DNA of 64,000 nt from Eledone cirrhosa (taxonomy: Eukaryota). This document shows, in pieces, positions 20,701-64,000 of this stretch. The notes beneath the pieces were generated by a model. That model was not told where the DNA came from and made no database searches. It worked only from the letters and a program-made list of their open reading frames with translations. The stretch is taken from positions 8,866,001-8,930,000 of the forward strand of contig OZ024757.1 in NCBI GenBank assembly GCA_964016885.1. Direction: 5' to 3'. Both the position numbers and the translations under genes were made by a program. How positions within the stretch are numbered: the stretch's first letter is position 1; every line of letters starts with the position of its first letter.

Positions 20701-20782
20701 TGTCTGGTGACAAGCCTAAGCCAGATGACAAGTAATCACACACACACATATATAATAATAATAATAATGATAATAATAATAA

Positions 20783-21484
20783 GGGAAGAAGACGCACATG
20801 GTGGAAAGAAGGTCATGAAATCGCTCCCGTAAGTTTTTGATTTTTAATATATTTAAATCAATTGTGAAATAACAATTCTTAGTACGAATGATGCATAAAG
20901 CATCCGACTCAAGCCTCAGGAAGATTCGGATCCATAATATATTGTTATATCGCTCAAATATTCAATTTTGTAACATACATTTTACATTCAAAAAAGAAAA
21001 TGGTTATAAATGGAAGAAAACCACCCCCTCTGTCTACACTATATAGAACAGCCAAATAACAGCAATTTCACCAACACCACAAACTAGATACACCACCTAT
21101 CCCATCACTCCTCTGTGTACACTAAATACAACAGCCAGATAGCGGCAATTTCACCACCACCAATCCCAGCATAATAATTATAATTACTATTATTATTGTC
21201 TCAAGTCTTCACAAAATGTTTAATTCCAATATTAAGAAAAATATGTCACCACATATATTAAACAACGCCATCACTACAGTCACCGCCGCCACCACACATC
21301 CATCATTACTACCACTATCCCATCACCGCCGCCACCACCCATCCATCATTACTACCACTATCCCATCACCGCCGCCACCACCCATCCATCATTACTACCA
21401 CTATCCCATCACCGCCGCCACCACTCCTTCATTGCTACCACCGCTATTCCCCCATTACCTTCTGTTAACTTACGAAAGGGGAAG
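20783..21484 (+). repeat. Shared non-coding leader, copy 1
   Basis: Follows (AAT)n at 20753-20782. Carries GCTCAAATATTCAA, GAAAATGG(C/T)TATAAATGGAA, CTACACTATATAG and CCATCACCGCCGCCACCAC blocks, as do the four other copies. Confidence 0.85.
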
Positions 21485-22522
21485 GAGTCATGTCGATAGA
21501 CTCTACTTAAGGAGATCTGAAGGTGGAAGAGGTCTTATCAGCATAGAGGACTGTGTTCAGATGGAGAAAAACAACCTACACAAATACGTGACTGATAGTA
21601 AGGAGCCAATGCTCAGAACTGTACTGAAGGAGGGGACAATAGGCCAGCGGATGTCCAAGGAGGAAATAACATCAAGGAGAAAGAGCAGCCTTCAGGAAAA
21701 ATCCCTTCATAGTACCTTCTTTGAGAAAACTGAATTTAGAGATCCACAGATGTGGAACTGGTTGAAAAGAGGAGACCTTAAAAAGGCTACAGAAGGAATG
21801 TTAATGGCTGCGCAGGAGCAGGCCCTAAAAACGAAGTGGTTGAAACACCATATTTACAAGGGGAAGGCTAGCCCACTGTGCAGGATCTGTGGACAGAGAG
21901 AGGAGAATGTGGCTCACATTGTATCCGAGTGTAAACACCTAGCCCAGACTCACTATAAGGGCTGGAGACATGATGTGATGGGCAGGGTGATCTACTGGCA
22001 CCTATGCAAAGTAAACAATTTACCACATTCTGGGAAGTGGTATGAGCATAAGCCAGAGTCGGTGATAGAAAACGATCAGGTGAAGGTGCTGTGGGACTTT
22101 AGGATACAGACGGACAAGAAACTGGAACAAAATAGACCTGACCTGGTGGTTGTGGACAAAGAAGAAAGATCGTGACTGATTGTGGATGTGGCTTGCCCAT
22201 TCGACACGAGAGTGCAAGAGAAGGAGAGGGAGAAAATTAACCGATACCAGAACTTAAAGTGGGTAAAAATGATTTGGAACTGCCATGAAGTCAAAGTGAT
22301 CCCGATTGTCATAGGTGCACAAGGGACTATCTCAAAAGGTGTCCAGAGATGGTTAAAGAAAATTGGCCCCTACACGCTTTTTGGAACACTTCAAAAGGCA
22401 TGCTTGCTGGGAACAGCAACAACCGTGCGATACGTCCTGAATATCTGAGGCTGCAGGTAGTGGCTTGATATTCATTTCAACAAACTTTCCAGTTAACTAA
22501 CATCAATGACTGAGACTCAAAG
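21483..22522 (+). mobile_element. R4/Dong family A, 3' fragment (CCHC + RLE)
   Basis: Closely matches 25060-26101: [23 protein letters not shown]. Followed by a TAA-type tract. Confidence 0.9.
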
Positions 22523-22556
22523 AGTAATAGTAATAGTAATAATAATAATAATAATA

Positions 22557-25500
22557 GGCTATGTAACCATACATTCGCCAATCCTCGATAAGAGTGTTTA
22601 AATATCGAACATAAACAGTTCGAATAACGGTGAAATGGAGACTAGAACGTCATGTGACAGACTCTCACCCAACAGGTGCCCCCTGACTCAGCAGCAGGAA
22701 CCTGACTGTCAACCAAATACTGCTGATGTTGGAGGAAGGAGAAGAAGGAAAGGGGCCAGAACCAACTGGACGAAAGAATTGAATAGAACTGTTATGCAAT
22801 GTTACCTGAAAAGTAACCCCAAGGAGAGGGGCTACAGGAGACGGATGCATAACATCTGGAACGAGATTTGTTTATTTAAATTAGATGAACAAAAATTGGC
22901 CGGGCAGACTCGGGTAATAAGAACTAATGGGTGGATAAGCGAGCTGGAACTGGAGGAACTGAGCAGAGAGAATGGCTTGGAGATGGCGGGTGTAGTATGC
23001 CAGACAAGCGAGCCAGTGGGAAATGAAGGTGAAGAGGTCCTGAGAACGGAAGAACCACCCGAAGCAGACAATGATCTGAATACTGAGATAAATAATACCT
23101 GGAACAGAGATACGGCCACTGAGGAGATGAATGCTGACGGGCTAGGACAAGACTCGGTTGACATCCTAAATTTAGTGGTAGATGAATTGAACAATGATAG
23201 TGGGAGACCTATGAACCTAAGATTTGTAGACAGGAAAAAGTTAAAAGAAACAACAGCTAAGGTAAACAAAGTCATCCCATACCTTGAGGCGAGGAGCCTT
23301 CACCAGTGCAACAATATCCTCAAAGCAACAACAAATACGGTGAGGAAACTACTTGGTATAAAAGCGAGAGGAAACAACAGACAAGAAAGAGCAGAGCCGT
23401 GGTGGAAGAAGCGACTGAGTGGGCAAATCGGGGAAATGGGAAATGACATAGGAAAGCTTGAGTCACTACTGAATGGGACACTAAAAAACATAGGCACTAA
23501 AAATAGACTGGAAATAAAATACAAAACTAGGAGGAAAAAGCTAAATATTATCATAGAGGAACTGAAGCAACGCATTGTAGCAAAGAGTGCAAAAATCAGG
23601 CGATACGAGAACAGAGTCAGTCAGTATAAACAGAACCGCATGTTCGACAACAACCAGAAGATGCTGTTTGGACAGCTTGAGGGGAAAGAAAGAGGCAACG
23701 ACTTGATCCCTGGGGCGGAGCAAACTAAAACATTCTGGAGAGGAATATGGGAGCAGGATGTTAGACATAATGACCAGGCAGGGTGGATTGAGACAGTACA
23801 GAGGAAGATCGGTGAGCAGGCACAACAACAAACTGATTTGTGTATCAGAGTTGAAACTCTTAAGGGGCAGGCCAAAAAACTAACCAACTGGAAATCACCA
23901 GGCCCAGATGGTGTGCAGGGGTATTGGATTAAACATTTAACATCCCTCCACCCGAAGCTGACGGCCATGTTCAATGACTGCTTGGTGTCGGGTGAGGTGC
24001 CAGAGTGGTTGACAAAAGGTACCACAGTTCTGATAATGAAAGACCGAATCAAGGGTAATGATGTTACCAACTATAGAGCTATCACATGTCTGTCCGTAAT
24101 GTGGAAACTGTTGACGAGCATTGTGTCTGAGGAAATCTACCATCACCTCCACACAAACAACTTGTTACCGGACGAACAGAAAGGATGCTGAAAGAAGTCA
24201 CGTGGTACAAAGGACCAGTTACTTATTGATAAGATGGTAATGGGGAATTGCAGGAGGAGACACACTGATCTTGCCATGGGATGGATAGACTACAGAAAGG
24301 CATTTGACATGGTGCCTCATTCTTGGATCACCAAAAGCCTGGAGATCTTCAGGGTGGCAGATAACATCAGACAGTTGCTAGGCAGGAGTATGGGGTCCTG
24401 GGAGACAGAGTTGACATCAACTGGAGTATCCTTGGGAAGCGTGAAGATCAAGAGAGGTATCTTCCAGGGAGATAGCCTGTCCCCTCTGTTGTTTGCCCTT
24501 GCCCTGATGCCCTTGACCATTATGCTGCGAAAAGTGAGAGCAGGATACAAGTTGGGAAGGGGAGAGCTTACCATCAATCACCTCCACTTCATGGACGATC
24601 TTAAGCTCTTCGGGAAAAGTGAGAAGGAGTTGGATGTGCTTGTTGACACTGTCCGTATTTTCAGCAGTGATATATGTACGCAGTTTGGTATTGGTAAATG
24701 TGGAGTCATTGTGATGAGGAGGGGTAGGTCGAGCAGAAGTAACGGGATCCAGATACCAACAGGTGAGATGATAAAGGAAATTGACTATGAGGAAGGATAC
24801 AAGTATCTGGGAGTTCTGGAGGCTGATGGCATAAAGAACAAAAAAATGAAGGAATTGTTAAGAACTGAATACATTCGGAGAGTAAGGAGCGTATTGAAGT
24901 CACATCTGAACAGCAGAAATGCCATAAGCGCAGTAAATTCCCGAGCTGTGTCTATTATTAGGTACAGTGCGGGAATTCTGAGATGGAATATTGCTGAACA
25001 AAAAGAAATGGATAGGAAGACTAGGAAGCTATTGACTATCTACAACATGTTCCACAAGAGGAGTGATGTCGATAGACTCTACCTAAGGAGATCTGAGGGT
25101 GGAAGAGGTCTTATCAGCATAGAGGACTGTGTTCAGATGGAGAAAAACAACCTATACAAATACGTGACCTATAGTAAGGAGCCAATGCTCAGAGCTGTAC
25201 TGAAGGAGGGGACAGTAGGCCAGGGGATGTCCAAGGAGGAAATAACATCAAGGAGGAAGAGCAGCCTTAAGGGAAAATCCCTTCATAGTACCTTCTTTGA
25301 GAAAACTGAATTTAGAGATCCACAGACATGGAACTGGTTGAGAAGAGGAGACCTCAAAAAGGCTACAGAAGGAATGCTAATGGCTGCGCAGGAGCAGGCC
25401 CTCAAAACGAAGTGGTTGAAGCACCATATTTACAAGGAGGAGGCTAGCCCACTGTGCAGGATCTGTGGACAGAGAGAGGAGACTGTGGCTCACATTGTGT

Positions 25501-26101
25501 CCGAGTGTAAACGCCTAGCCCAGACCCACTATAAGGGCTGGAGACACGATGTGATGGGCAGGGTGATCCACTGGCACCTGTGCAAAGTAAACAATTTACC
25601 ACATTCTGAGAAATGGTATGAGCATAGGACAGAGGCGGTGATGGAGAACAATCAGGTGAAGGTGCTGTGGGATTTTAGGATACAGACGGACAAAAAACTG
25701 GAACACAATAGACCTGACCTGGTGGTTGTGGACAAAGAAAAAAGATCGTGTCTGATTGTGGATGTGGCCTGCCCATTCGACCCGAGAGTGCAAGAGAAGG
25801 AGAGGGAGAAAATTAACCGATACCAGGACCTAAAATGGGAGGTGAAAAGGATTTGGAACTGCCATGAAGTCAAAGTGATCCCGATTGTCATAGGCACACT
25901 GGGGACTATCTCCAAAAGTTTCCAGGGATGGTTAAAGAAAATCGGCCCCTTCACGCTTTTTGGAGCGCTTCAAAAGGCATGCTTGCTTGGAACAGCAAGA
26001 ACCCTCCGATACGTCCTGAATATCTGAGGCTGCAGGTAGTGGCTTGATATTCAATCCAACGGACTTTCCAGTTAACTAACATCAATGACTGAGACTCAAG
26101 G
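22557..26101 (+). mobile_element. R4/Dong-clade non-LTR retrotransposon family A, copy 1 (ORF 22635-26027, one internal TGA at 24189-24191)
   Basis: R4-type N-terminus (WTKELNRTVMQCY..GYRRRMHNIW..EQKLAGQ), RT motifs [23 protein letters not shown] and FMDDLKL, CCHC, RLE PD..D motif. Flanked on both sides by (AAT)n. Confidence 0.95.
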
Positions 26102-26110
26102 AATAACAAC

Positions 26111-26140
<30 letters not shown>

Positions 26141-26142
<2 letters not shown>

Positions 26143-29100
26143 TTTCTTTATTAACCACAAGGGTTTACATAAATTAGACATTAAGGAGAGTGCAGGACAA
26201 TACAGGACGGTACAAATGGGCATTTCTGCGTGTAAAAAACAAAAACAGAGGATGTAACAAAAAATAAAAATGAAAAATTCCCCAATAGGGGGAAGACTTC
26301 GGAGGGACATTTGTGGAGAAAGCCCAGTAAAAGGCCACAATGACCCTGACCACCTAGCCAAGTGCCCTCTCCCAGTTTTCCACCTTTAATTTACAGATAT
26401 ATACTCAGAGTAGGCCCATTCACTCGGGCCATTCTTGCTTCTCTCACCCATCTTTCAACAAAATGCTGGGAAGAGAGCACTTCCCTCTCTACTCTGATTT
26501 TCCTTTTCAAATGAAATTTGAAAAAGTCAATCAGAGCATCACCGAAGAGGTAAGTGCTCGTCTTCAGCCCTTTCAAACGTGTCCACCATACTATCTCTTT
26601 CGCCATGGCCACCAGACAGATAAAAACTGCCTGCCCTTCCCGGCTAAAGGAGGAGGGCGGGGCAATCCTCACGATGGACTCAGATGATATCCGGATCCGT
26701 CCTAAACGCGACAGCAGGTGTTCGATATAAACCCACAAGTCAGCAATTTTCGGACACTGGACGAGTGTGTGCAGGCGGTTTCGTCGCCCTGCGCGCATCT
26801 CGGACATGCCCGGCTGACTGCACCTCCATGCCTGTAAAGTTTATCCCGAACTGGCAAGCCTCCTCGGTAGCACTGCCTGGCCAGAGATTTCTGGAAGTTG
26901 TCCATAGGCCCTGGCCCGAAAGTTCTTCCGAAGAGATTGGCTAGTTAATATTCGTCGACGCCTAGAGTTTTCCCAAGTACGTCGTCGCTCTTCCCCTCCA
27001 CTAATCCTCTATAGAACGCCGAGGTGGAGTTTCCACCGATCACATTGCCCGATTGGTCGAGGGCTGTGAGCGCCTGAAGACATTCCAGTCTCCAGGCGCT
27101 CCCTCTCGGTCTTCGCTTGATCCAGGACTGCAGCTCCGTCAAGGAAACGAGCTGGGGAAATACGTGTCTAGCAAACGGTGACCACACCTGATCACCGTCG
27201 AGGAAGAGGTGGAAATGTAGCCTGAGCGCGTGCCTGCGCATCATCAGCCACGGCATGCCCGGCCCTCCACGTAGCGGGTGTTGACAACAAATGCACCGCC
27301 TGACCATCGGAGCGCGTCCCTTCCACAAAAAGCGAAAGAGCAAACGCTCCAGCGCAGTCAGGCGAGGCTTAGGACAAGGTACGACGGTCAGGCGGTAGCA
27401 GATGACAGACGCGATGTACGCGTTAGCCACCTCCGCTCGACCTTTCAGGGATAGCTTCCTCTCCACCCATTTCTGTGTGAGAGAAGCCACCCTGCTCGTT
27501 ACCTCGTCCCAGTTTTTGTCCGTCTGGAGGTCCGGACCGAACCAGACCCCTAGCAATTTAACCGGTCCGTCCGTCCAGCGTCCGACGACGCTGTTGGACG
27601 GCATGGACCTGCCTCTCCAGGTGCCGAGCTGCAGGCCCACTGACTTTTCCTGGTTGATCATTGCTCCTGTCACCGCTTCGTATTCTCTTAGTGTAGTGCC
27701 GATCGCCTCGATGTGTTTGGCATTCGACACCACTACGGTGACATCGTCCGCATATGCTGACACGGATCTTCCGCATCCTAGTTCGCGTGGGACGCCCCTC
27801 AACGTCTCCAGTTTGTGCAGTAATGACTCGAGAGTCACTACGTACAAGAGGGACGAGAGGGGACATCCTTGGCGGACCGAGCGCATGATGTTGAACGGTT
27901 CCGACAGGTGACCGTTCACTCTCACCACAGAGCAGATGTCGCTGTGCATGGCAGTGATCCAGCCTCTGAAGACGGGCCCAAAGCCAGCCGCCCTCAGGAC
28001 TACCGCTAGTTAACGATGGTCGACCCTATCGAAAGCTTTCGACTGATCTAAATTGATCAAGGACCCACCCGTGCCAGGTTCCTTAGCTACCCTCTCTACG
28101 GTGTATCGCATGAGGTGGAGGTTGTCGTGGATGGGTCTGTCGGGAATGGCGCATGTCTGCGCCTCTCCCACCAGACCACCAATGACAAGCGCCAACCACT
28201 TTGCTAGCACCTTGGCCAAAATCTTGAACTCTGTGTTTAGCAGAGTTATGGGCCGGAAATTATCTATGTTATCCCCCTTGTTTGGATCCTTTCTCAGCAG
28301 TTCCACCGCTCCTCGGCTCACAGAACTGGGAATTCTCCCGTTCTGTTGCCAGTTGCAGTAGACGTCCGCCAAGAGGCCTCCGAACAAGTCTGGCATCTGT
28401 ACGTAAAGTTCATAAGGCAGACCATCCAAACCAGGCGATTTACCCCTTGTGCAGCCAGTCATTGCCTCCCTTACTTCAGCGGCTGTTATCTGCTTTTCGC
28501 AACACTTCGCCTCAGTGGCCGAGAGCCGCGGCAGTCCGTCGCGGTAGACACTAAAGTCCATCCCTCGACCCGGCCCACCGCTGCCCCCGAACAGCTGAGC
28601 GAAGTGTTGCTGAAAAGCTTCACACATTTGCCCGGGATCGAGTACCATGCGCCCGTCGTGGTCCACCAAAGACCGGATCGTGGCTTTGTTGCCACGACGC
28701 GCCTCCGCCACTCGGGCCCATTGAACGGCTTTCGTCCCCTCGTGTCTGAGAGCACGCACCCTTGCTCTGACAACGCTGCCTTCGTGCTTTGCATTGAAGA
28801 ATTGGTCAAGGGCCAATTTCGCCGCAAGCACGTCGGTCGCAATGCCTTTGCTAAGCGCCTTGTCTAATTTTCTAACTAGTTCTCCCTCTGCTCTATTTTT
28901 CTCTATTGCAAAAGCCTTACTAAACCTAATGGATTCTATTCTAATCGCTCTTTTCAGAGCAAACCACCACTTGTTGTTGATGATGGCCCCCGTCAACGCC
29001 CGCTTAACTAGTTCGCTAATCCGGTCTCTGTAGGCCTTGCGCGCTGGTAAGGACGCGTTTAGCTTCCAGTAGCCGGGTCCTCGTCTATGAAGCCTATCTA

Positions 29101-32100
29101 AGTCAAGCACACAGATCACGAATTTGTGGTCCGTGTAGCTGACTATCTTGAATTGTGGACAGCCTATGCTAGACCTATCTATTTCCCTACAAAATACTCT
29201 ATCTAGATATGATCTGGATGACCCTATGCGATTTGTCCAAGTCCACATTGGCACATTCGGGAAATCCAATTGGTACCTGTCAGACAGTTCAAAACGTCTG
29301 AGCAGGTTGGTGAGGCTCTTGAAAACTCCACCCCTATCCGCTAATCCCACAAAGTCCAGGCGTGCATCTAAGATCCCGTTCCAGTCGCCCACTAACACTA
29401 AAGAGCGGGACGTTCCAAGAAAGGTCTCCAGACGCCGGAAGAAATCAGGCCGCCCTGCTCCTGTCGGGGTATAGACGGCCACTAGCCTGAAAGCTTGCCC
29501 GTCTCCGCTGGTCACGTCCAGCACCACCAGCTTACCCTCTGGGTCCAGGAAGATGGCCCGTATGGCGAGATCCAAACCTCTCCGAAAAAGCACAGCAACT
29601 CCTCCCCCCGATCCAGGACGGCTGGGAGATGCGTACACATCGTAGCCGCCGAAGATCGGTGCGAAGGCCCGTGCTTCTGAGATTCTGGTCTCGCTGATGG
29701 CCACTACATCTATGTTTAGTGACCTGAGGTCGTTGAGCAGGTGACCCTGCTTCCATGACGACCCCAAGCCACGCGCATTTATGCTGCCTATTCTGAGTGA
29801 GGTCATGTTTAAAATAGAGTGGAAAAGATGGGAAAGACCACTTACCGTACTTTTCGAAGAGGAGGGATGGTTTTTACATCTCTTTTCACTTGATCGTCTG
29901 GTGAAGGGACCGTTGAATCGTCCCTTCGGCTAGTCGTCGGCTCTTCTATGAGAATGTCTGAATATACTCTTCGATTGATAGTTCCTCCTAGGTCCCTGAA
30001 ATCACCAACTGCGTTGGGGAATTTCGTTTTAATGTTTGTGTATTGTTTCTGTGCTAGTTTTAGCAGTCTTATGTTAGTTGGCGTTTTGATTGGTGCTGGT
30101 ATTATGTAGTCGTGTTGTGAAATGTCTGTGTGTTCAATTATGTAAGTCATTATTTTCTTGTTGTGTGTATTTATTGCCGTGCATTTGTTTTTCTTGGGGT
30201 GGGGTGTGGTTCTGCTATTTTCTTGTCGTTGTTGCTGGGTGTGTGTGTCTTGTTGTGTTTGCGATGTTGGTGCTTGTGGTGGTGGTGTTGAAGGTGTTGT
30301 TGGCGGTGGGGTTGTCGCCGGTGGTGATGGTGGTGCTAGTGTGGGTGGTGATGGTGTTGGTGGTGTTGCTGCTGTGGGTCTCTTTGCAGTAGACTTTACC
30401 CTTTTTTCATTTCTTTCCTCCCTTTTCAAAGGCGATGATGCGCTGCTTCTGCGTTTGTGCCTTCTTACGACCTTTTGCCATCCCTCTTCCACCTCACACT
30501 CCATGTCTGATTCTGTGAGGTCGGGGAGGGGTACCAGCTCCACTCTTTCACTTGTTGTTGTTGGTGATGTTTGCAGTGGAGTCTCTGTTGGAGCTGCTGT
30601 TGATATTATTGTTGTTGTTGTTAATACTTCCACTGCTGTTGCTGTTCTTGATTTCCGTGGCGGGGTATGGGTGCCACGGTCCTATCGTTCCTGGTTGCCG
30701 CTTGTCCTGTTGCTGGTAGCAGTGGAGCCGGTTTCGGTAGGAGGGGGTTTTCTCCTTTCTCAGGGTCTTCTCGTTGCAGAAGGCCCTGAGCTGAGTCTTC
30801 GATCTACAGCGAAAGCATTTTGGGCGTTTGCCCTCAACACTTATGGGCAGTTGAGTGCCGTTATCGAAGTCTATTACATCCAGGATAGCTTCCATGCACT
30901 CCTGGTTGGTTTGCATTAACATCTCAATGGCGGTGCCGACCCAATCTTCTCTTACTCTTTTCTGTACTTGCAGTACAGTTGTTTTGTCCTCGATTCCGAC
31001 GAGGACAGACGCGGCCAGCCAAGAAGGGGCCATCCCGGGGGGGGGGGGGGTCAGTTTGACACTCACAATTTTTTCCCGCAGTAGGAGGGCACCAACACCA
31101 TTTCCTCGCTCCTTAGGGTCACTACGGATTGAGCCTTTGCCTCCTGGGGTGTGGCAAAAAGCACGTCTACGGTGGCATATTTCTTGCCTCGGGTGATATG
31201 CGTTTTACGCTGCCACAGAGACCCTAAGGCTTTTTGTATTTGAGCCTCTGTGGCTCTTTCAACCCTACGGGATTTTGTGCTTACTGTACAGTACGTGACC
31301 GTACAGTGCTATTGGGTTTCGAAAAATGTTTCGGCTGCCTTGCAGATTGCTCGGTGTCCGGTTTTCGTCACCATCTTCTTCGCTTCATCTAATTCCTCAT
31401 TTGCTATGATGATGGTTTCCAGGTTCTTTGCGATACCTGCAAACGAGGTTGGTTTTTCTTTGCTGCTGTTGTTGTTGTTGTTGTTGTCGTAAGAGCTGCT
31501 GTTACTTTTGTTGTTGCTGCAGGTAGTACGACTACTGCCGCCGTCGCTGTTGCTGTGGTTGTTGTTGCTGTTGTTGCTGTTGCTGCTAATGCTGTTGTTG
31601 TTTATGATGCTGCTGATGCTGCTTCGGCTGCTACTGTTGTTTTACTTGTCACTGTTGCTGCTGCTGCTGTTATTACGGCTGCTACTGCTATTATTCATGA
31701 CGTCAGACGAATGAAATGGCTTTTCGTATTTGCGGCACACCTTTTTCGTCGTTGTCGTCGTCGTGGAGAAATGTTCCATGCTTTGCACGTGATTTTGTAA
31801 ACTATTTTTCTTTACTGGCGTCGCTTGCGAAAGAGAAGGGAGGGAGAGAGACAATCTTCTCTCTGCTGTAGTGACGATTGAGGAAGAAGACGGAATGAGT
31901 GGGAGTGACTTGTGAAAATTATTTTTCGTAGCCATGTTTTTTTTTGACTTAAAATAAATATTGGGCACAAAACCCAATAAGCGGTTATTTAACCCCGAAG
32001 GGCCAAATAACGGACAGAAAGACCCCTCTCACGAGGAGGAGGGTGTTTTTGTCTACAATTTGGTTAAAGTTTTAAACAATTTACAATTGTTATAGCGGTC

Positions 32101-32149
32101 AAAATTTACAATACCTTACAGAGCCGAGCCTCGGTCAACCATGGCATTC
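26141..32149 (-). mobile_element. Full-length Tx1-clade LINE subfamily A, copy 1 (ORF1 31935-29842; ORF2 29806-26391)
   Basis: ORF2 has APE (SINARGL, SET, GDWN, SYLDR, TDH), RT (YADD) and CPRC. ORF1 is low-complexity with a degenerate zinc knuckle. Stops at 28010 and 26945. (AAT)n at both ends; AATAAA just before the 3' end. Confidence 0.95.
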
Positions 32150-32200
<51 letters not shown>

Positions 32201-37971: not shown

Positions 37972-38028
<57 letters not shown>

Positions 38029-47000: not shown

Positions 47001-47624
47001 AGAGAGAGAGGAGACTGTGGCTCACATTGTATCCGAGTATAAACACCTATCCCAGACACACTATAAGGGCTGGAGACACGATGTGATGGGCAGGGTGATC
47101 CACTGGCACCTGTGCAAAGTGAACAATTTACCACATTCTGAGAAATGGTATGAGCATAGGCCAGAGGCGGTGACGGAGAACGATCAGGTGAAGGTGCTGT
47201 GGGATTTTAGGATACAGACGGACAAGAAACTGGAACACAATAGACCTGACCTGGTGGTTGTGGACAAAGAAAAAAGATCGTGTCTGATTGTGGATGTGGC
47301 CTGCCCATTCGACACGAGAGTGCAAGAGAAGGAGAAGGAGAAAATTAACCGATACCAGGACCTAAAGTGGGAGGTGAAAAGGATTTGGAACTGCCATGAA
47401 GTCAAAGTGATCCCGATTGTCATAGGCGCACTGGGGACTATCTCCAAAAGTTTCCAGGGATGGTTAAAGAAAATCGGCCCCTTCACGCTTTTTGGAACGC
47501 TTCAAAAGGCATGCTTGCTGGGAACAGCAAGAACCCTCCGATACGTCCTGAATATCTGAGGCTGCAGGTAGTGGCTTGATATTCATTCCAACGGACTTTC
47601 CAGTTAACCAACTGAGATTCAAGG
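44090..47624 (+). mobile_element. R4/Dong family A, copy 2 (ATG 44168; early TAA, late frameshift and stop)
   Basis: Colinear with 22557-26101; 853-aa open segment 44312-46873; (AAT)n tail. Confidence 0.95.
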
Positions 47625-47654
47625 AATAAAAACAATAATAATAATAATAATAAT

Positions 47655-50600: not shown

Positions 50601-50659
50601 TATAGCGTTCAAAATTTGCAATACCTTACAGAGCCGAGCCTCCGTCAACTATAGCATTC
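47655..50659 (-). mobile_element. Tx1 subfamily A, copy 2, with two large internal deletions
   Basis: Both termini match copy 1. ORF2 junction VVA|REPG at about 49600, ORF1 junction at about 49990. (AAT)n at both ends. Confidence 0.95.
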
Positions 50660-50694
<35 letters not shown>

Positions 50695-50695
<1 letters not shown>

Positions 50696-50934
50696 TACTT
50701 ATCGCAAATCCCAGGAAACCCGCGTATAGGAGAAATACAAAAGATAGTACTAATGGGAACTGCCCATATATTAAGGAAGATCCTGTCAATATAAGTACAT
50801 CACAAGTCTAAACACTAAGGATGCATGTGTGAATATGTATGTTCTTTCTTGAACATGGCGGACCTTGTTGTCTCTTGAGGTCACTGGTTGTGACTTGGTG
50901 ATAACTCGTATAAACATAAAGTAAGATAAATGCA
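50695..50934 (+). mobile_element. R4 family B, short 3' fragment
   Basis: Matches about 42627-42864; sits between AAT tracts. Confidence 0.9.
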
Positions 50935-50951
50935 AATAATAATAATAATAA

Positions 50952-51948
50952 TAAGGGAATCACATGATTGGATGATCAAACTCGTTTTGAAACACGAAAG
51001 CATCAAAAGATCATATTCCATTACAAAAGATGCACAAAGATACAGTAATGGACTACAAATTTCAGAAGTCCCATTTACTGCTGAAATGGAAAACACAGAA
51101 AAAGCAAAGCAGGTAAAAGTAACTGCAAAGAAAGAACTGCTACAGAAACTGGCTAAGAAATGGCAAGAAAAGCCTCTGTATGGAAAATACCCAGAGCGAG
51201 CTAACAATCCTGATGTTGACAACACTTTAACCCATCAGTGGTTGGCATCCTCTGGACTGAAATCGGAGACTGAAGGACTGATTATATCAGCACAAGATCA
51301 GTGACTGCCAACAAAAAATTACCAAGCCAACATAATAAAAAATGGGTGCAGCCCATTATGCCGTGTATGCAAAAAACAACCAGAGACCATTGACCATATA
51401 ATTTCAATGTGCAGTCCTATAGCTCCAACCGAATACCTAAACAGGCATGACAGAGCTGCACAATACATACATTGTATAATGTGTAAGCATTTTGACCTTC
51501 CCAATCAAAAGAATTGGTGGGAGCATCAACCACCTCCCATACTTGAAAAAGATCACATCTCAATCTTGTGGAACTTTAGCATCCAAACAGACTGAAAAAT
51601 AGATGCAAATAGACCTGATATAATATTGAAGGACTTCCAAAAGAGGGTATGCCTGTTAATTGATATGTCTGTTCCAATAGACAAGAATGTATCTATAAAA
51701 ACATTTGAAAAATTGAGCAAGTATAAGGACATGGAGATAGAAATTGGAAAAATGTGGAAATTGAGAACTAAAACAATACCAGTGGTTGTAGGCGCTCTGG
51801 GAATGATACCAAAGGGGACTAATGATTAATTATCGCAAATCCCAGGAAACCCGCGTATAGGAGAAATACAAAAGATAGTACTAATGGGAACTGCCCATAT
51901 ACTAAGGAAGATTCTGTCAATATAAGTACATCACAAGTCTAAACACTA
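50952..51948 (+). mobile_element. R4 family B, 5'-truncated fragment, 3' UTR cut
   Basis: Matches about 41757-42746. Begins TAAGGGAATC, overlapping the AAT tract, and is fused to Tx1B at about 51950. Confidence 0.9.
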
Positions 51949-54900: not shown

Positions 54901-56580
54901 TGGAGGAGGAAGGAAGAGAATTTTTTCTTTTTTGGTTTCTTTTTTTTTTCCGGATACGTTTCCCACTCCTCGTCGTCACAATCTGTCTCCAGTTGTGATA
55001 GGCCGGGGAGTGGAAAATCCTCCACAGCCGTTAGTTTTGGTTGTGGCGTGGTGGATGGTGTAGGCGCTGGTGCTAGTTCTGAAGCGTTGGGTGGTGGTGG
55101 TGTTGGTTTTGCTGGTGGTGGTGGTGGTGTTGGTTTTTCTACTGTTGCTGGGGTTGTTGCTGTTATAGTTGCTTCTGTTGTTGCTGCTACAGTTGTTGCT
55201 GCCATCTCTGCTACTGGTGGTGTTGATGGTTGTGTCACTGGGGTGGGTTGGAGAGGTGGCCTCAACCTTTTAGCCTGAGGGCAGAAAGCCCTTAGGTGGA
55301 TTCCTTCACCACAAACGACACACCTAGGTCTTCTGCCCTCGCCAATTACCGTGAGGTGGCTGCCGTCAGTGAGGTCTATTACCTCTGGGATCTCCTCAAT
55401 GCTTTTTTGGTCCGCTTGGATCAGGAGCTCCATCCCAGATCCGCACCAGTTCTCCTGCTTTTCTTTTGCTATTGCTATTATCTTTGTGTTGGCTTCTATT
55501 AGCCAGGGAATTTCGATGGCCGGTGGAACGTGGGTCACCCTGATCTTTACGAGTCTCTGGCCACAATAGCTTGGGACGAGTGTGAAGTCGTCACTTCTTA
55601 ATGGGGCCATGGAGTGTTCTCTAGCCTCCTCTGGTGTTTCAAAGAACACGTCCACTGTTCCATACTTTTGCCCACGTCTGATGTGGGTTTTTCTTGCCCA
55701 CACATGTCCCAAAGCTTTTTGGATTTGGGACTCGGATGCCCGTTCAACTCGGCGCGATTTTACATTTATTGTTCTATACGACACGGTGCATAGGCGCCGA
55801 TGCTCCATTTTATTAGGTGGGGGGTGAGGTTGACCCTGTACCCATCTTTCTTTACCATTTGTTAGGCATTTTCTAAATCCTCCTGAGTTACCGTAAATGC
55901 TTCGAATTGTTTTGCTACTCTGGCGAAACTGAGGGGGGGGGGTTATAATGTCATTGTTGTTGGTGTTGCTATCGTTAATATTAATTTTAGTTTCAGTTGT
56001 GGTGGTGGTAACATCAGTCGTCTTTGGTGGGGAAGAGTCCATTTTGCTTGATTTCATTTCGACATCACGAGTTAATTTATTTTTTTCTTCTTTTGTTTCT
56101 GTTGTCGCGGTGGTGGTGGTAGTGGTGGTTGTCGCGGTGGTGGTGGTGGTGGTGGTGGTGGTGGTGGTGGTGGTGGTGGAGGCTTTAACACCTGCAGTCA
56201 TTGGTAATGGCGGGAAATGTATGTCTGCCTGAGACAAATTTAAAATATTGCTAGTGCTTATATTTTTTTTTGTGTTGGCAAACGTAGTAACATTTACAAT
56301 GGTGGTGTCGGTGTGAGGTGTTATTTTGTGAGGAAGGCTTTCAGCTGCTTGGTGCAGAGGTGAATTAGCCATTTTTTTCAAAGAAATTTTTTGATAATAA
56401 TAAAAGTTTAAATTTTGGGCACAAGGCCCCAATCTTTTTGGGTGTCCTTTTCGGAAAACAATGTATGTGCGCTTATAAACAGTTAACAATAAAAAATTTC
56501 CATAAATGACAATTTTTAACAAACGGAAATAACAAACCTTTGCGGAGCTCACGATGATACGATTTACTACGTAGGTCGCC
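51951..56580 (-). mobile_element. Tx1 subfamily B, copy 2 (complete 5' end; ORF1 ATG 56372; ORF2 ATG 54348; 3' end deleted)
   Basis: ORF1 has an intact knuckle CVVCGEGIHLRAFC; ORF2 has APE and RT (YADD). The 5' end GGCGACC abuts (AAT)n 56581-56629, followed by (AAG)n. Confidence 0.95.
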
Positions 56581-56658
<78 letters not shown>

Positions 56659-56717
56659 AAGAAGAAGAAGAAAGAACAATAAGAAAGAACTATTCTTAGC
56701 ACAAATGTTGCATAAAG

Positions 56718-57520
56718 GCACCGAATGAGGTCCCATAAAGTTTCGAATCCATATTATATTGTTGTATCGCTCAAATATTCAATTTTGTATTATATATTTT
56801 GTATTCAAAAAAGAAAATGGTTATAAATGGAACAAAACACCCTCTGTCTACACTATATAGAACAGCGGCAATTTCAATTTCACCTACACCAGAAACTTGA
56901 TACACTTGATACACTACCTATCCCATCACACTAAATATAATTTCACCAGCATCATAATAATAATTACTAGTATTATTGTCTCAAATTTTAAAAAATGTTT
57001 AATTCAAATTTTACGGGAATATGTCAACACAAAATATAATGAAAATATATATTAAACATACGAACACAAACTCATAGATACTATATCAGTAACCACAACA
57101 CCACCGCTGCCACCACCCCACCACATCCATCATCGCCGCCATCACTCATTCAATGCTACTGACACTATTCCCCTGTTAACTTGAGAGAGAAAAGGGAAGG
57201 TGACGGTAGCACTAGACAAGAGAGAGGCTAGCAAAAGATATAAATAGACTGACTTGGTGACCTTGCCACGGCCAAACGTCTACATCAACAATTATGGGAC
57301 TGCTGGCTCACCCCTTCCTCACCAACAATATAAAAAGCCCCGGCACCACCACCGGCATAGCCAACAACAATAACAGCCAACTACAACAAAAAGTATATTA
57401 TATTATTGTAATGCACTGGGTGATTGCTGGCCTTGTGCCTGGAGTGGAGACAATTATTAATAATTTCATTCTTAAGCCACGCAATGCTCACATTAAGGAA
57501 CCACTCATGATAATAACAAT

Positions 57521-57557
<37 letters not shown>
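56718..57557 (+). repeat. Shared leader, copy 4, ending in a ~31-nt poly(A)
   Basis: Paralog of 38029-38952. Confidence 0.85.
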
Positions 57558-57559
<2 letters not shown>

Positions 57560-60500
57560 CGTGACCAAGAAATACCGGGATGGCGGCCGGCGGGGAATAG
57601 CCATGTCTCTAGGGGAGAACGACCCCTCTAGTCTTGGTTGACACTCGTTCTAGAAGTGGTAACACGAAATGATTACCCCTTGGCGGATAAGGATAAAACG
57701 CGACAAAATAAAGTAAATGTCTAATGATAAAATCTCATACCGCATCGGCCGTCACCCGGGTAAAAAAGGGCCGCGTCCCTCAGAGAGGAACCAGACTGGG
57801 TTCGAAAAATCAGCTAATGGTTCAAACCTTCCCATCACTTCGGAGCTGGAGACCTCCCATAACCGGAATACTCCTACTGTTGGCCCTCCATGCTCACCAC
57901 CAAGAAATCCAAAGAAAAAGAGAGAAAAATGGTCAAGGGAAGATAATAAAGAAGTCCTTGAGGCTTTCTACACTGCCATGTACTACCCATCAAATACATC
58001 GAATACAGAACAAACATATATCAACTGAAAAAAGAAACATCCCGAAAACAGAGGCTATATTGACAGTAACAAACTAGCCAATATACGAAGAAATATTGTA
58101 AGAAAAAAGTTACTAACTGATATAGAAATTGATCAGATCAAGCTAGTAGCACAAAGTCAGCGAAGGGAAAATGAAGCATGTGTCAGTGAAAACGAGGTAA
58201 ACTGTAACACTTCGAATCCCAGGGTTGGGGCGGAATCACTGGCAACAGAACAAATTAAAGAAAGGAGCGAAAAGTGGAGGGAGTGCATGCTCAGGATGAT
58301 ACTCCAAATGAAAATAATGAGATCGTAAAAGATAAAGAGATGAATGAGAATGAACTTGCCAACTTGAAGGATGAAATTATGATCGAATGGATGAAAATGA
58401 AAGAATCTGACATGGGGCAACGAGACACCCTCCCTAAGATCCAGAACTCCAAACAGAACCAAAAGATAATACACAAGACTAACATAATTCTCAAAAACAT
58501 TATCATCACAAACAAACTAAACATTACTGATTTAAATCATCTCTATTATGCATCGGCTAAAGTCACCACTCACTTATGTGGAGTGAAAATGAAAAAACAA
58601 AGGAATTCCCACAAGAAATATACTTGGCAAGAGAACATCAATCGACAAATAAACCTTCTCCGATCTGACATAGAAATTTTAACAAACTATAAAGTAGGTG
58701 AACATGTTAAACAAACTAAACTTAGAAAATTGAAAAAAAAGTACAGTATAAAATCAACATGTGACATAGACATGCTGATAGAAATAATCAAGCAAAAAGT
58801 GTCGGCCAAAGCTGCTCGTATCAGGCGCTTTGAAAAACGATCTAGATTCTATAAGGACAATAACATGTTCAAAAACAACCAAAGAAACTTCTACTGAAAA
58901 ATTGGTAAGTCAACAATAACTGCTAAATCAATACCACCCATGGAGGAAGTGCAAGAATTCTGGGAAAAGTTCTGGGCCGAAGAAAAAGTTCATAACATAC
59001 ATGCCCCATGGATAGACAGACAAATGAAAGATACAGCTCACCTTGAGGAACAAATATGGGAAAATATAACAGTTGAACAGTTGCGCTTGGCTCTAAGAAA
59101 AACCAGCAAATGGAAATCCCCAGGAAAAGACAAAATAAAAAACTTTCGGATAAATAACCTCACTGAGTCTAATGAGCTGTTAGCCCAACTTTACAATGAA
59201 ATAGTTAAGGAGCCAGAAAAGATACCATCATGGCTAGTTAACGGCATTACATTCCTCCTTCCGAAGAATGATGAAACAAACAATCCCCAAAATTACAGAC
59301 CGATAACTTGCTTGACCACAATGTATAAAATTTTAACATCAGTCCTAACTGAATACACATATGACCACCTGATAACAAATGACCTATTTCCCATTGAGCA
59401 GAAAGGGTGTAAACGAGGCTCATATGGCGGTAAGGATCAGCTTCTGGTTAACAAAATGATACTGGAAGATTGTCATAATAGACACAAAAATCTATCGATT
59501 GCTTGGATAGATTATAAAAAAGCATTCGATAGTTTGCCACACAGTTGGATTGAAAAATGTTTAGAGATTTTCAAAATATCACCCGTTGTCAGGAGGTTTT
59601 TGTCATTCAGTATGAAGACATGGAAAACGCCACTCCGTTTGAATAGTGAAACAAAATCACTGGAAGCTGGAGAAGTTAATATTAATTGTGGAATTTTTCA
59701 GGGTGACTCTTTATCACCGCTTTTATTCTGCATGGCACTTATACCATTAAGTAAAATGCCCAATGAGACAAAACATGGATATAAAGTCTATGACAAAACC
59801 ATTAATCACCTGTTCTACATGGATGACCTGAAACTATTTGCAAAAAATGACGAACAATTGCAAGGGCTATTATCCACTGTGGAGCAGTTCAGTGATGACA
59901 TTAAAATGAAGTTTGGACTAGATAAATGCGCCAAAGCAACGTTCACCAGAGGAAAGCTGCTGAAGAGTTCAGACATTAATCTTGATCGGGGGAACGTGAT
60001 AAGAGAACTTGATCAAGAAAAAACTTACAAATATCTAGGTGTTTGTGAAGGAGACGGAATCAAGCACTCGACAATGTGGGAAAGGATAAGGAAGGAATGT
60101 TACCGCAGAGTAAGAACAATCTTAAGAACGGAATTGAATGCAAGGAATAGGATCGATGCCATAAACACGCTTGCCCTACCAGTAGTAACCTACAGTTACA
60201 ATGTCATCAACTGGTCAAGCACAGAGATCCGTAGGCTCGATACAAAAATTCGAAAATTCTTAACCATGCACAGAATCATCACCATAAGGCAGATATAGAT
60301 AGAATATACCTCCCTAGGAAAGAAGGAGGACGTGGGTTAATCCAGTTAGACATTGCGTTGAAAACTGCAACAATTGGATTATCTACATATCTAAGGGAAT
60401 CACATGATTGGATGATCAAACTCGTTTTGAAACACGAAAGCATTAAAAGATCATATTCCATTACAAAAGATGCACAAAGATACAGTAATGGACTACAAAT

Positions 60501-61508
60501 TTCAGAAGTCCCATTTACTGGTGAAATGGAAAACACAGAAAAAGCAAAGCAGGTAAAAGTAACTGCAAAGAAAGAACTGCTACAGAAACTGGCTAAGAAA
60601 TGGCAAGAAAAGCCTCTATATGGAAAATACGCAGAGCGAGCTAACAATCCTGATGTTGACAAAACTTTAACCCATCAGTGGTTGGCATCCTCTGGACTGA
60701 AATCGGAGACTGAAGGACTGATTATATCAGCACAAGATCAGTGTCTGCCAACAAAAAATTACCAAGCCAACATAATAAAAAATGGGTGCAGCCCATTATG
60801 CCGTGTATGCAAAAAACAACCAGAGAGCATTGACCATATAATTTCAATGTGCAGTCCTATAGCTCCAACCAAATACCTAAACAGGCATGACAGAGCTGCA
60901 CAATACATACATTGGATAATGTGTAAGCATTTTGACCTGCCCCATCAAAAGAATTGGTGGGAGCATCAACCACCTCCCATAGTTGAAAAAGATCACATCT
61001 CAATCTTGTGGAACTTTAGCATCCATACAGACCGAAAAATAGATGCAAATAGACCTGATATAATATTGAAGGACTTTAAAAAGAGGGTATGCCTGCTAAT
61101 TGATATGTCTGTTCCAATAGACAAGAATGTATCTATAAAAACATTTTAAAAATTGAGCAAGTATAAGGACCTGGAGATAGAAATTGGAAAAATGTGGAAA
61201 TTGAGAACTAAAAGAATACCAGTAGTTGTAGGCGCTCTCGGAATGATACCTAAGGGGTCTAATGATTACTTATCGCAAATCCCAGGAAACCCGCGTATAG
61301 GAGAAATACAAAAGAGAGTACTAATGGGAACTGCCCATATACTAAGGAAGATTCTGTCAATATAAGTACATCACAAGTCTAAACACTAAAGATGCATGTG
61401 TGAGTATGTATGTTCTTTCTTGAACATGGCGTACCTTGTTGTCTCTTGAGGGCACTGGTTGTGACTTGGTGATAACTCGTATGAACATAAAGCAAGATAA
61501 ATGCAACT

Positions 61509-61509
<1 letters not shown>
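57558..61509 (+). mobile_element. R4/Dong family B, copy 2 (ORF 57717-61365, stops and frameshifts)
   Basis: Colinear with 38953-42867; (TAA)n tail. Confidence 0.95.
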
Positions 61510-61548
<39 letters not shown>

Positions 61549-62851
61549 GGGAAGAAGACGCACGAGGTGACGGAGGTCATGAAATCGCTCCCGTAAGTTT
61601 TGAATTTTTAACATATTTAAATCATTTGTGAAATAACAACTCCTAGTACAAATGCTACGTAAAGCACCCGGCTTGAGCCCCAAAAAAATTCGGACCCAAA
61701 ATATATTGTTATAAGGCTCAAATATTCAAATATTCAACTTTGTATTGTACACTGTATATCCAAAAAAAAATGGCTATAAATGGAAGAAGAAGAACCCCCC
61801 CCCCCTCCTCTCCTCTGGCTACACTATATAGGACAGCTAAACTCACCAACACCAGAAACTAGATACACCACCCACCCCATCATCTGTGTACACTAAACAC
61901 AACAGCATTTTCACCTTCACCGCCACCGCTCACTACGGCCATCATTACCACCACTATCCCATCACCGCCGCCACCACCCCTTGACTCCTTCACTGCTGCT
62001 GCCACCGCTACAGCACCATCACTACAGTAATACGGCTCAAATATTCAAATATTCAACTTTGTATTGTACACTGTATATCCAAAAAAAAATAAAATGGCTA
62101 TAAATGGAAGAAGAAGAACCCCCCCCCCCCTCCTCTCCTCTGGCTACACTATATAGGACAGCGAAACTCACCAACACCAGAAACTAGATACACCACCCAC
62201 CCCATCATCTGTGTACACTAAACACAACAGCATTTTCACCTTCACCGCCACCGCTCACTACGGCCATCATTACCACCACTATCCCATCACCGCCGCCACC
62301 ACCCCCTGACTCCTTCACTGCTGCTGCCACCGCTACAGCACCATCACTACAGTAATACGGTCGCATCAGCGCCACCACTGCCTCGGTATCGACATCACCA
62401 CCACCACTGTCTCAGTATCGCCAACGCCGCCAGCCTCTGCTGGCTACCACTTCCACATTATAGAATTCCTACTACTAACAAAGAGGAAGGCATCAAAATA
62501 TATAGATAGACTCAAAAGAAAAAAGAAAAAACAAACAACAAAAGCAGCACAGCAACAACAGTAAAAAACGAGAAAAACAGAGAAAAACAAAAACAAAAAA
62601 AGAAACCCCAAAAACGTAAAGAAAATAAGAATGAAGAGAGAAGCAGGCGGACGGACAGAGAAGAGGGGGGAAAAAGTAAAACTTAAAAAACAAAAACTAA
62701 GTCAGACATTCGAATACTACATTACAATGAAACTTATGCTTATTCATTTTTGGGGCCCTTTCTGCCCGTGTGTTTGTTTGTTTATGTGTGTCCGTATACA
62801 GCGTGGTGATAATGCCACACAAGGGCCAAGTGGGATGGCGGATCCACAGAT
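61549..62851 (+). repeat. Shared leader, copy 5, with an internal ~320-bp tandem duplication (61715-62033 / 62034-62358)
   Basis: GGCTCAAATATTCAAATATTC starts at both 61715 and 62034. Confidence 0.88.
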
Positions 62852-64000
62852 GGCTATGTAAACATACATTCGCCAATCCTCGATAAGAGTGTTTAAATAT
62901 CGAACATAAACAGTTCGAATAACGGTGAAATGGAGACTAGAACGTCATGTGACAGACTCTCACCCAACAGGTGCCCCCTGGCTCAGCAGCAGGAACCTGA
63001 CTGTCAACCAAATACTGCTGATGTTGGAGGAAGAAGAAGAAGGAAAGGGGCCAGAACCAACTGGACGAAATAATTGAATAGAACTGTTATGCAATGCTAC
63101 CTGAAAAGTAACCCCAAGGAGAGGGGCTACAGGAGACGGATGCATAACATCTGGAACGAGATTGGTTTATTTAAATTAGATGAACAAAAATTGGCCGGGC
63201 AGGCTCGGGTAATAAGAACTAATGGGTGGATAAGCGAGCTGGAACTGGAGGAACTGAGCAGAGAGAATGGCTTGGAGATGGCGGGTGTAGTATGCCAGAC
63301 AAGCGAGCCGGCGGGAAATGAAGGTGAGGAGGTCCTGAGAACGGAGGAACCACCCGAAGCAGACAATGATCTGAATACTGAGATAAATAATACCTGGAAC
63401 AGAGATACGGCCACTGAGGAGATGAATGCTGACGGGCTAGGACAAGATTCGGTTGACATCCTAAATTTAGTGGTAGATGAGTTGAACAATGATAGTGGGA
63501 GACCTATGAACCTAAGATTTGTAGACAGGAAAAAGTTAAAAGAAACAACAGCTAAGTTAAACAAAGTCATCCCATACCTTGAGGCGAGGAGTCTTCACCA
63601 GTGCAACAATATCCTCAAAGCAACAGCAAATACGGTGAGGAAACTACTTGGTATAAAAGCGAGAGGAAACAACAGACAAGAAAGAGCAGAGCCGTGGTGG
63701 AAGAAGCGACTGAGTGGGCAAATCGGGGAAATGAGAAATGACATAGGAAAGCTTGAGTCACTACTGAATGGGACACTAAAAAACATAGGCACTAAAAATA
63801 GACTGGAAATAAAATACAAAACTAGGAGTAAAAAGCTAAATATTATCATAGAGGAATTGAAGCAACGCATTGTAGCAAAGAGTGCCAAAATCAGGCGATA
63901 CGAGAACAGAGTCAGTCAGTATAAACAGAACCGCATGTTCGACAACAACCAGAAGATGCTGTTTGGACAGCTTGAGGGGAAAGAAAGAGGCAACGACTTG
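62852..64000 (+). mobile_element. R4/Dong family A, copy 3 (ATG 62930; runs off the window)
   Basis: Colinear with 22557-23705; shares the early TAA stop with copy 2. Confidence 0.93.

What the first reader, a model, noticed from the sequence alone, without database searches (positions are those of the whole stretch)
20753..64000. Two unrelated retrotransposon clades share (AAT)n tracts with strict opposite polarity
Seen: every AAT tract in the array reads AAT on +. All eight R4 pieces lie on +, and each intact 3' end runs into (AAT)n. All four Tx1 copies lie on -, and each surviving terminus abuts an AAT tract (26141/32149, 32201/37971, 47655/50659, 56580). Known: Dong (R4 clade, RLE nuclease) targets TAA repeats; Tx1 lineages Kibi and Koshi target TC and TTC repeats; TRAS and SART insert into (TTAGG)n in opposite orientations. 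Inference: an RLE and an APE nuclease converged on one microsatellite but nick opposite strands. Each insertion leaves AAT flanks, so the array can keep extending itself. I do not recall an (AAT)n-specific Tx1.
Basis: partly seen in the sequence, partly recalled or inferred. Interest (0 to 1): 0.85.

Follow-up and report, generated by a model that had tools for sequence, protein, structure and literature searches.

The report
Rival retrotransposons share AAT, opposite strands
Two unrelated kinds of jumping gene in a likely octopus genome insert into the same AAT repeats and always face opposite ways, building long mixed chains; repeat targeting is a known habit, but I found no paper on an AAT-seeking element of the Tx1-like kind, which likely cuts a short five-letter motif rather than the whole repeat.

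Summary
Confirmed, and it holds across the genome. All 12 (AAT)≥4 tracts read AAT on +, with eight R4 pieces on + and four Tx1-like copies on −. At unlinked loci, 0 of 216 Tx ends (201 ATT, 15 other) and 0 of 135 R4 ends (128 AAT, 7 other) showed reversed polarity. The tracts are targets, not tails: 44 of 52 truncated R4 copies have AAT at the 5' junction, and duplicated copies of this array carry different new insertions in tracts that are empty here. Corrections: the two Tx 'families' share one ORF2 (94%), and a tRNA-like SINE was missed. That SINE and short Tx copies also insert at dispersed ATTAT sites (SINE duplications 9–20 bp), so the nick motif is likely short (5'-ATAAT↓R). All 59 full-length Tx copies had (ATT)n at the 5' junction; their RNA likely carries upstream (AUU)n. 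A sister Tx lineage uses (ATCT)n/(AT)n. Dong on TAA and opposite-facing TRAS/SART are known; ten literature searches found no (ATT)n Tx1, but Repbase and Dfam could not be searched. This scan noted the same pattern elsewhere in this genome. New variant of a known kind.

The parts
20754..20780 (+). (AAT)n tract with one GAT unit, left edge of the array
20781..22523 (+). R4 piece 1: 5' leader (77% to the R4A leader) fused near 21480 to an older R4A 3' part (93%)
22524..22556 (+). AGT/AAT tail and (AAT)6 tract
22557..26102 (+). R4A, 5'-truncated (element 996–4541), RT + CCHC + RLE, 98.3% to an intact copy
26103..26140 (+). AAC/AAT tail and (AAT)10 tract between the R4A 3' end and the TxA 3' end
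26141..32149 (-). TxA, full-length Tx1-like LINE (ORF1; APE-RT-zinc finger ORF2, broken by stops)
32150..32200 (+). (AAT)17 tract between the TxA 5' end and the TxB 3' end
32204..37974 (-). TxB, Tx1-like, lacking its first ~21 bases; older subfamily (89%)
37974..38027 (+). (AAT)18 tract
38030..42868 (+). R4B, nearly full-length
42869..42886 (+). (AAT)6 tract
42887..43167 (-). tRNA-like SINE with an internal ~96-bp duplication; 3' end resembles the Tx 3' end; A and B boxes recognised by eye
43170..43208 (+). (AAT)13 tract; empty here, filled by three different R4 pieces in three C18 paralogues
43209..47625 (+). R4A, full-length
47634..47654 (+). (AAT)7 tract
47655..50659 (-). TxA with two internal deletions, both ends present
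50660..50692 (+). (AAT)11 tract
50693..50934 (+). R4B, 3'-terminal ~245 bp
50935..50952 (+). (AAT)6 tract
50953..51948 (+). R4B fragment (element 3676–4672), 3' end lost, fused to TxB with no tract
51951..56580 (-). TxB, 5' end intact, 3' ~1.2 kb lost
56581..56685 (+). (AAT)16 then (AAG)n tract; empty here, filled by R4A (+) in one paralogue and by a full-length Tx (−) plus R4B (+) in another
56717..61509 (+). R4B, nearly full-length (exact 5' end not fixed)
61511..61546 (+). (AAT)12 tract
61547..64000 (+). R4A 5' part with a 325-bp leader duplication, runs off the window

Best explanation
Two R4/Dong-type retrotransposon families and one Tx1-like lineage insert into existing (AAT)n tracts in fixed opposite orientations throughout this genome, likely because the Tx enzyme primes from a nick in the AAT strand (5'-ATAAT↓R-3') while R4 would prime from the ATT strand. 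Shown: polarity at unlinked loci; tracts exist before insertion; each insertion leaves a tract on both sides; arrays keep growing after duplication. Inferred (about 0.8): the Tx nick motif is short, read from the target duplications of a SINE that likely uses the Tx enzyme and of short Tx copies at dispersed sites. Inferred (about 0.55): full-length Tx RNA begins inside the upstream tract, so the cDNA ends in (AAT)n and pairs with (ATT)n of the target; this would explain why full-length copies lie only in tracts, have uniform 5' junctions and show no ~15-bp duplication. R4A has ragged 5' junctions, as expected for priming by chance microhomology.
For: Top hits chosen without the flank in the query: TxA 5' 30 of 30 and TxB 5' 30 of 30 abut (ATT)n; Tx 3' 30 of 30 begin ATT; R4A 3' 30 of 30 AAT-like. 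Census without C18 paralogues: TxA5 50/50 ATT, TxB5 46/47, Tx3 105/119, R4A5 29/35 AAT, R4A3 76/77, R4B3 23/23, none reversed. Truncated R4 5' junctions: 44 of 52 AAT, 0 ATT. Filled and empty paralogues at two tracts, six new pieces, all in the expected orientation. One of 20 evenly spaced 10-kb windows holds such an array. SINE: 23 of 45 full-length copies gave an exact duplication of 9–20 bp, 21 of 23 beginning ATTA, preceding base C 14, T 6, A 3. Young truncated Tx copies at non-tract ATTAT sites with duplications (L185, L190, L191). 59 full-length Tx: perfect ATT run ≥13 nt at the 5' side in 58, but <12 nt at the 3' side in 13 (p=0.001). 5' junctions precise in 93 of 94 Tx against 18 of 34 R4A (counted by eye; p=3e-10). 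PMC3774820 (passages) links uniform R2 5' junctions to target sequence carried on the RNA.
Against: No full-length Tx copy showed a carried (ATT)n leader flanked by a unique duplication (0 of 59), so the leader is not shown. A second nick at the only TpA step of (ATT)n would also give in-register junctions. Some of the 13 short 3' arms are single substitutions next to the junction; about 8 are informative by eye. Of 34 truncated Tx calls only 9 had an ATT tract at the 5' side and 25 did not (about 10 of those are alignment breaks or internal rearrangements by eye). The SINE–Tx link rests on a similar 3' end and the same ATTAT signature. Census loci are top hits and their neighbours, so they lean towards arrays. 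No nuclease was assayed.
Confidence: 0.7

Rival explanations
1. The nucleases are not strand-selective on the tract; polarity is set by pairing of the RNA's 3' end, (AUU)n for Tx and (AAU)n for R4, with the nicked strand, and is inherited from each copy's own downstream flank.
For: Every intact 3' end runs straight into its repeat; R4A carries conserved AAC/AAT units in its own tail. PMC6007223 (passages) proposes that repeat tails steer site choice or priming in RTE elements. Not exclusive with the best explanation.
Against: The base just upstream of the SINE duplication, which an RNA tail cannot pair with, is a pyrimidine in 20 of 23 cases, as expected for a nuclease preference. EN swaps between TRAS1 and SART1 moved specificity (PMC7265360, passage).
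Confidence: 0.35
2. Full-length Tx copies are confined to tracts because the Tx enzyme itself reads several repeat units, or because selection removes long copies elsewhere; the dispersed SINE is moved by a different, laxer Tx family.
For: Tx 3' ends lie in tracts in 105 of 119 cases against 26 of 133 for the SINE. Other Tx-like families with related 3' ends exist. SART1 needs three repeat units (PMC7265360, passage).
Against: Young truncated copies of the same Tx family (98% or more alike) sit at non-tract ATTAT sites with duplications. Full-length copies with short 3' arms show no duplicated non-ATT letters.
Confidence: 0.3
3. The tracts are element-made tails, or the pattern comes from duplicating a few insertions.
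For: The array is present six times on C18, and two TxA copies share a near-identical 1.2 kb.
Against: Tracts lie at 5' junctions of full-length and truncated copies on many contigs; paralogues carry different insertions in tracts that are empty here; short Tx copies at unique sites have no long tail.
Confidence: 0.02

Closest known systems
Dong (R4 clade; Bombyx, Anopheles, snail DongBg, ostracod Dong1/2)
   Same: Single ORF with RT, CCHC and restriction-like nuclease; (TAA)n target, described for insects, molluscs and cnidarians (PMC3812793, PMC7998251; passages).
   Different: Nothing essential. Two families here, 37% identical in protein, with a related 5' leader. No HDV-like ribozyme was found with an uncalibrated descriptor.
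Kibi (TC)n, Koshi (TTC)n and crocodilian Tx1 on (TTCC)n/(TTTC)n
   Same: L1-group APE-RT elements that prefer a microsatellite (PMC4494074; passages and section 15 read, figure 3 not visible).
   Different: Target is (ATT)n, with a sister lineage on (ATCT)n/(AT)n; the host is likely a mollusc; the target is shared with an RLE element.
TRAS1 and SART1 of Bombyx in (TTAGG)n
   Same: Two elements in one simple repeat in opposite directions; about 10–12 bp recognised (PMC7265360; passages).
   Different: TRAS and SART both carry APE nucleases (R1 clade, recalled) and are telomeric; here the partners use unrelated nucleases and the arrays are dispersed.
R2 elements whose RNA carries upstream 28S sequence
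   Same: Uniform 5' junctions attributed to cDNA–target pairing; ragged junctions where no leader is carried (PMC3774820; passages).
   Different: Here the carried leader would be a microsatellite on a Tx1-like element; it is inferred, not shown.
SINEU mobilised by Tx1-Mar in crocodilians
   Same: A SINE that shares 3' end and site preference with a Tx1 family, with weaker specificity (PMC4494074; passages).
   Different: tRNA-like head; ATTAT motif instead of a Mariner target.

Membership tests
R4/Dong | Single ORF: RT, C-terminal CCHC, PD-(D/E)xK restriction-like nuclease, no APE | tested here: met
   Intact ORFs of 1141 and 1075 aa with RVT_1, a CxxC..H..C knuckle and an RP(D/G)..D motif; no Exo_endo_phos; nearest solved structures are R2 proteins
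R4/Dong | (TAA)n target | tested here: met
R4/Dong | N-terminal divergent Myb/SANT domain without zinc fingers | tested here: inconclusive
   No zinc finger by eye and no Myb hit in Pfam at E≤1; no profile-profile search was run
R4/Dong | RT tree groups with named Dong or R4 | not testable with these tools
   None of the 120 homologues listed (of 125 found) was named Dong or R4
R4/Dong | HDV-like ribozyme at the 5' end | tested here: inconclusive
   0 of 40 R4A 5' ends by a home-made descriptor without positive control; no such Rfam hit
Tx1 (L1 group) | ORF2 = APE + RT + C-terminal zinc finger, closest to L1 | tested here: met
   Pfam PF03372, PF00078, PF13966; human L1 ORF2p E=7.5e-54 against R2 9e-20
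Tx1 (L1 group) | ORF1 of RRM + CCHC type rather than Transposase_22 | tested here: met
   CxxCxxxxHxxxxC in ORF1; ESM Atlas hits 0.93–0.90 to zf-CCHC and ZCCHC3-type RNA-binding clusters; weak tandem-RRM Foldseek hits, E≥0.008, from a model with pLDDT 48; no Transposase_22; ORF1 types from PMC5203782 (passages)
Tx1 (L1 group) | Target preference (more than 20% of flanks, rule of PMC4494074) | tested here: met
   105 of 119 3' ends and 96 of 97 5' ends at ATT tracts
Tx1 (L1 group) | RT tree groups with named Tx1L, Keno, Kibi or Koshi | not testable with these tools
   No named Tx1 among listed homologues; the quick tree has no named reference
TRAS/SART pair | Both partners APE-type and target telomeric | tested here: not met
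   One partner is RLE-type; arrays are interstitial on many contigs. It works like the pair but is not a member.

The most novel reading that the evidence does not exclude
First (ATT)n-seeking Tx1 lineage, and a microsatellite niche shared by two unrelated nuclease classes on opposite strands. A loose five-base nuclease is locked onto long tracts because the full-length RNA carries the upstream repeat and must pair with it; every insertion regenerates both the target and the leader, so R4, Tx1 and a Tx1-borrowing SINE jointly seed and extend polarised arrays across the genome, while sister Tx1 lineages have switched to other repeats.
Probability: 0.4. Interest if true: 0.7.

Novelty: new variant of a known kind. 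Interest (0 to 1): 0.5.

Why it matters
It is a natural experiment on how LINEs gain site specificity. Close Tx1-like relatives in one genome (about 70% alike in RT) use ATT or ATCT/AT repeats; full-length, truncated and SINE copies differ in how tightly they follow the tract; and an unrelated RLE element uses the other strand. With intact natural ORFs on hand (loci L248, L204, L219), the question 'nuclease specificity or RNA–target pairing' can be tested directly. It also offers a mechanism for the mixed LINE–microsatellite arrays that appear common in this genome (1 of 20 sampled 10-kb windows).

Tried and rejected
Tails-only and duplication-only explanations: rejected. Four separate families: rejected, TxA and TxB share ORF2. 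A carried leader shown by flanking duplications: 0 of 59. HDV-like ribozyme at TxA, TxB or R4A 5' ends: 0 of 40 each with an uncalibrated descriptor; Rfam gave five chance-level matches and did not report the SINE head. Expression: no RNA holder listed; four runs laid as contigs showed the Tx 3' part in three runs of unrecorded type and nothing on RNA ends. Named Tx1 or Dong references: none among the homologues listed, so the tree (quick method, careful search unfinished; some rows frameshifted) only shows that the ATT and ATCT lineages belong to one clade (support 100) with an Argonauta protein. The single-sequence ORF1 model was poor (pLDDT 48) and a deeper alignment was not obtained. The background sample is only 200 kb. 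No supplements were read, and Kojima and Fujiwara 2004, the Fujiwara 2015 review, Repbase and Dfam were not seen; any of these could list an ATT-targeting Tx1.
Full report
Setting. The window is G000:C18:8866001–8930000 of a 3.0-Gb assembly. The closest named relative of the Tx reverse transcriptase is an Argonauta hians protein at 72% identity, so the host is likely an octopod (inference).

Observation. There are 12 (AAT)≥4 tracts and no (ATT)≥4 tract in the window; in 200 kb of evenly spaced background the split is 6 to 6 and tracts are about 4.6 times sparser. Mapping with natural copies gives eight R4 pieces on + and four Tx1-like copies on −, as reported. Additions: a SINE at 42887–43167 (−), a tract-less fusion at 51948/51951, and six near-identical copies of the array on C18, which I left out of the counts below.

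What the elements are. Intact natural ORFs exist elsewhere. R4A (1141 aa) and R4B (1075 aa) have RT, a CCHC knuckle and a PD..D nuclease motif, no APE, and are nearest to R2 among solved structures; they are 37% identical. The Tx ORF2 (1139 aa) is APE–RT–zinc finger and far closer to human L1 ORF2p than to R2. ORF1 has a CCHC knuckle and looks like tandem RRMs (weakly 107), the ORF1 type tied to Tx1 in PMC5203782 (passages). No named Tx1 or Dong sequence was available for a tree, so the clade labels rest on architecture. TxA and TxB share ORF2 and 3' UTR at 94% and differ in 5' UTR and ORF1: one enzyme, two front ends.

Polarity at unlinked loci. Queries excluded the flank. Among the 30 best hits each, TxA 5' ends (24 off C18) and TxB 5' ends (26 off C18) all abut (ATT)n in element sense, all Tx 3' ends begin ATT, and all R4A 3' ends run into AAC/AAT units. 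A census over all fetched loci except 40 C18 paralogues gave TxA 5' 50/50 ATT, TxB 5' 46/47, Tx 3' 105/119, R4A 5' 29/35 AAT, R4A 3' 76/77, R4B 3' 23/23; the rest were 'other' and none was reversed. Two further Tx-like 3' ends behave alike (8/9 and 10/11). These loci are top hits and their neighbours, so the shares lean towards arrays.

Target, not tail. 5'-truncated R4 copies have AAT at the 5' junction in 44 of 52 cases and ATT in none. The tract at 43170–43208 is empty here and in two paralogues and holds three different R4 pieces, all on +, in three others. The tract at 56581 is empty here and in one paralogue, holds an R4A piece (+) in a second, and a full-length Tx (−) between (AAT)11 and (AAT)16 followed by R4B (+) in a third. 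Different fillers in one tract point to independent insertion after duplication (inference). Against full independence, the two TxA copies in the window share 1.2 kb with one difference, probably local conversion or duplication; the other pairs are no closer than unlinked copies.

The Tx motif is short. Young truncated Tx copies occur at ordinary ATTAT sites with duplications of about 6–12 bp (L185, L190, L191). Of 34 truncated Tx calls, 9 had an ATT tract at the 5' side and 25 did not, about 10 of the latter being alignment breaks or rearrangements by eye. The SINE ends like Tx and has the same polarity, but only 26 of 133 of its 3' ends lie in tracts, against 5.5% of ATTAT pentamers in the background. 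Of 45 full-length SINE copies, 23 gave an exact duplication of 9–20 bp; 21 begin ATTA and 20 are preceded by C or T. Read on the primer strand this is 5'-ATAAT↓R-3', a pyrimidine–purine step like L1's TTTT↓A (recalled). The Tx 3' end itself (…C^ATTAT) fits the motif, which favours head-to-tail stacking.

Why full-length copies stay in tracts. All 59 full-length copies examined have (ATT)n at the 5' junction; the perfect run is ≥13 nt on the 5' side in 58 but <12 nt on the 3' side in 13. Three unlinked copies have (ATT)n upstream and ATT(CTT)n downstream. A 15-bp duplication would copy such letters to the 5' junction; it does not. 5' junctions are precise in 93 of 94 Tx copies and in 18 of 34 R4A copies, the rest trimmed or partly duplicated (by eye). 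PMC3774820 (passages) reports this contrast for R2 RNAs with and without upstream target sequence, and self-cleavage of Dong at its 5' end. I therefore infer that full-length Tx RNA carries upstream (AUU)n (about 0.55). No copy showed the leader directly (0 of 59), and a second nick at the tract's TpA step is an alternative.

Target shift. A sister element at 11856–14832 (+), 69–72% identical in DNA, is followed by (ATCT)n or (AT)n, with 0 of 26 3' ends at ATT tracts; it lies in the same clade as the ATT type in a quick RT tree.

What is known. Dong targets TAA, also in molluscs (PMC3812793, PMC7998251; passages). Tx1 microsatellite targets in text are TC, TTC, TTCC and TTTC (PMC4494074; passages and section 15; figure 3 not visible). 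TRAS1 and SART1 face opposite ways in (TTAGG)n (PMC7265360; passages). A 2026 Octopus vulgaris annotation lists recently active Dong-R4 (5 families) and L1-Tx1 (13 families), and the word 'target' does not occur in its main text (PMC13282606; passages); PMC8967140 (passages) lists both as expanded in coleoids. PMC4640811, PMC6007223 and PMC9004415 were seen as passages only. Ten searches found no (ATT)n-targeting Tx1 and no RLE–APE pair sharing a repeat. Repbase, Dfam, subscription papers and supplements were not seen. Earlier notes of this scan describe the same pattern on other pieces of this genome; they are not independent evidence.

Verdict. Real, genome-wide and mechanistically informative. 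Each ingredient has precedent; the ATT target for a Tx1-like element, the cross-class pairing and the full-length versus short contrast appear undescribed. New variant of a known kind, interest 0.5.

Noticed in passing
window 11856–14832 (+): Older sister Tx1-like element (TxC) whose relatives are flanked by (ATCT)n or (AT)n instead of (ATT)n: a target shift within one lineage.
   Followed up: partly
window 42887–43167 (−); loci L297–L320: Abundant tRNA-like SINE (4179 first-look candidates) with a Tx-like 3' end and 9–20-bp duplications starting ATTA(T).
   Followed up: yes
G000:C18 near 7.1, 7.7, 8.25, 8.9, 9.4, 9.88 Mb: The array lies in six near-identical segments, some inverted, with different recent insertions; a ready set of filled and empty sites.
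   Followed up: partly
window 20781–21480, 38030–38580, 43209–43600, 56717–57030, 61547–62360: R4A and R4B (37% protein identity) share a related 5' leader (about 67–77% DNA); piece 1 joins a B-type leader to an A-type 3' part.
   Followed up: partly
L184, L187, L349, L354, L359: Copies with a TxB front end and TxA-type 3' part, and many internal deletions or tandem duplications, suggest frequent template switching between the two Tx subfamilies.
   Followed up: no
L199, L341, L342: Three unlinked full-length TxA copies with ATT(CTT)n downstream; (TTC)n is the Koshi target. (AAG)n also often precedes R4A 5' ends.
   Followed up: partly
L200: 5'-inverted truncated Tx copy between tracts, as twin priming would give.
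   Followed up: no
L343, L355, L283: Head-to-head fusions of truncated R4 and Tx pieces with no tract between them; the window has a tail-to-tail fusion at 51948/51951.
   Followed up: no
L041, L043, L055, L057, L073, L117; L070, L076, L108: At least two more Tx-like 3' ends, and one further unidentified repeat end, recur beside AAT tracts.
   Followed up: partly
window 9125–11850 and 15000–16200: A long (TGG)n-type tract followed by a GC-rich decayed segment that looks like another RT element, and a further decayed element on − behind the (TA)n tract at 14833–14948; not classified.
   Followed up: no
window 1–4600: Several 80–88% identical copies of a ~0.9–1.7-kb unit with (AT)n tracts.
   Followed up: no
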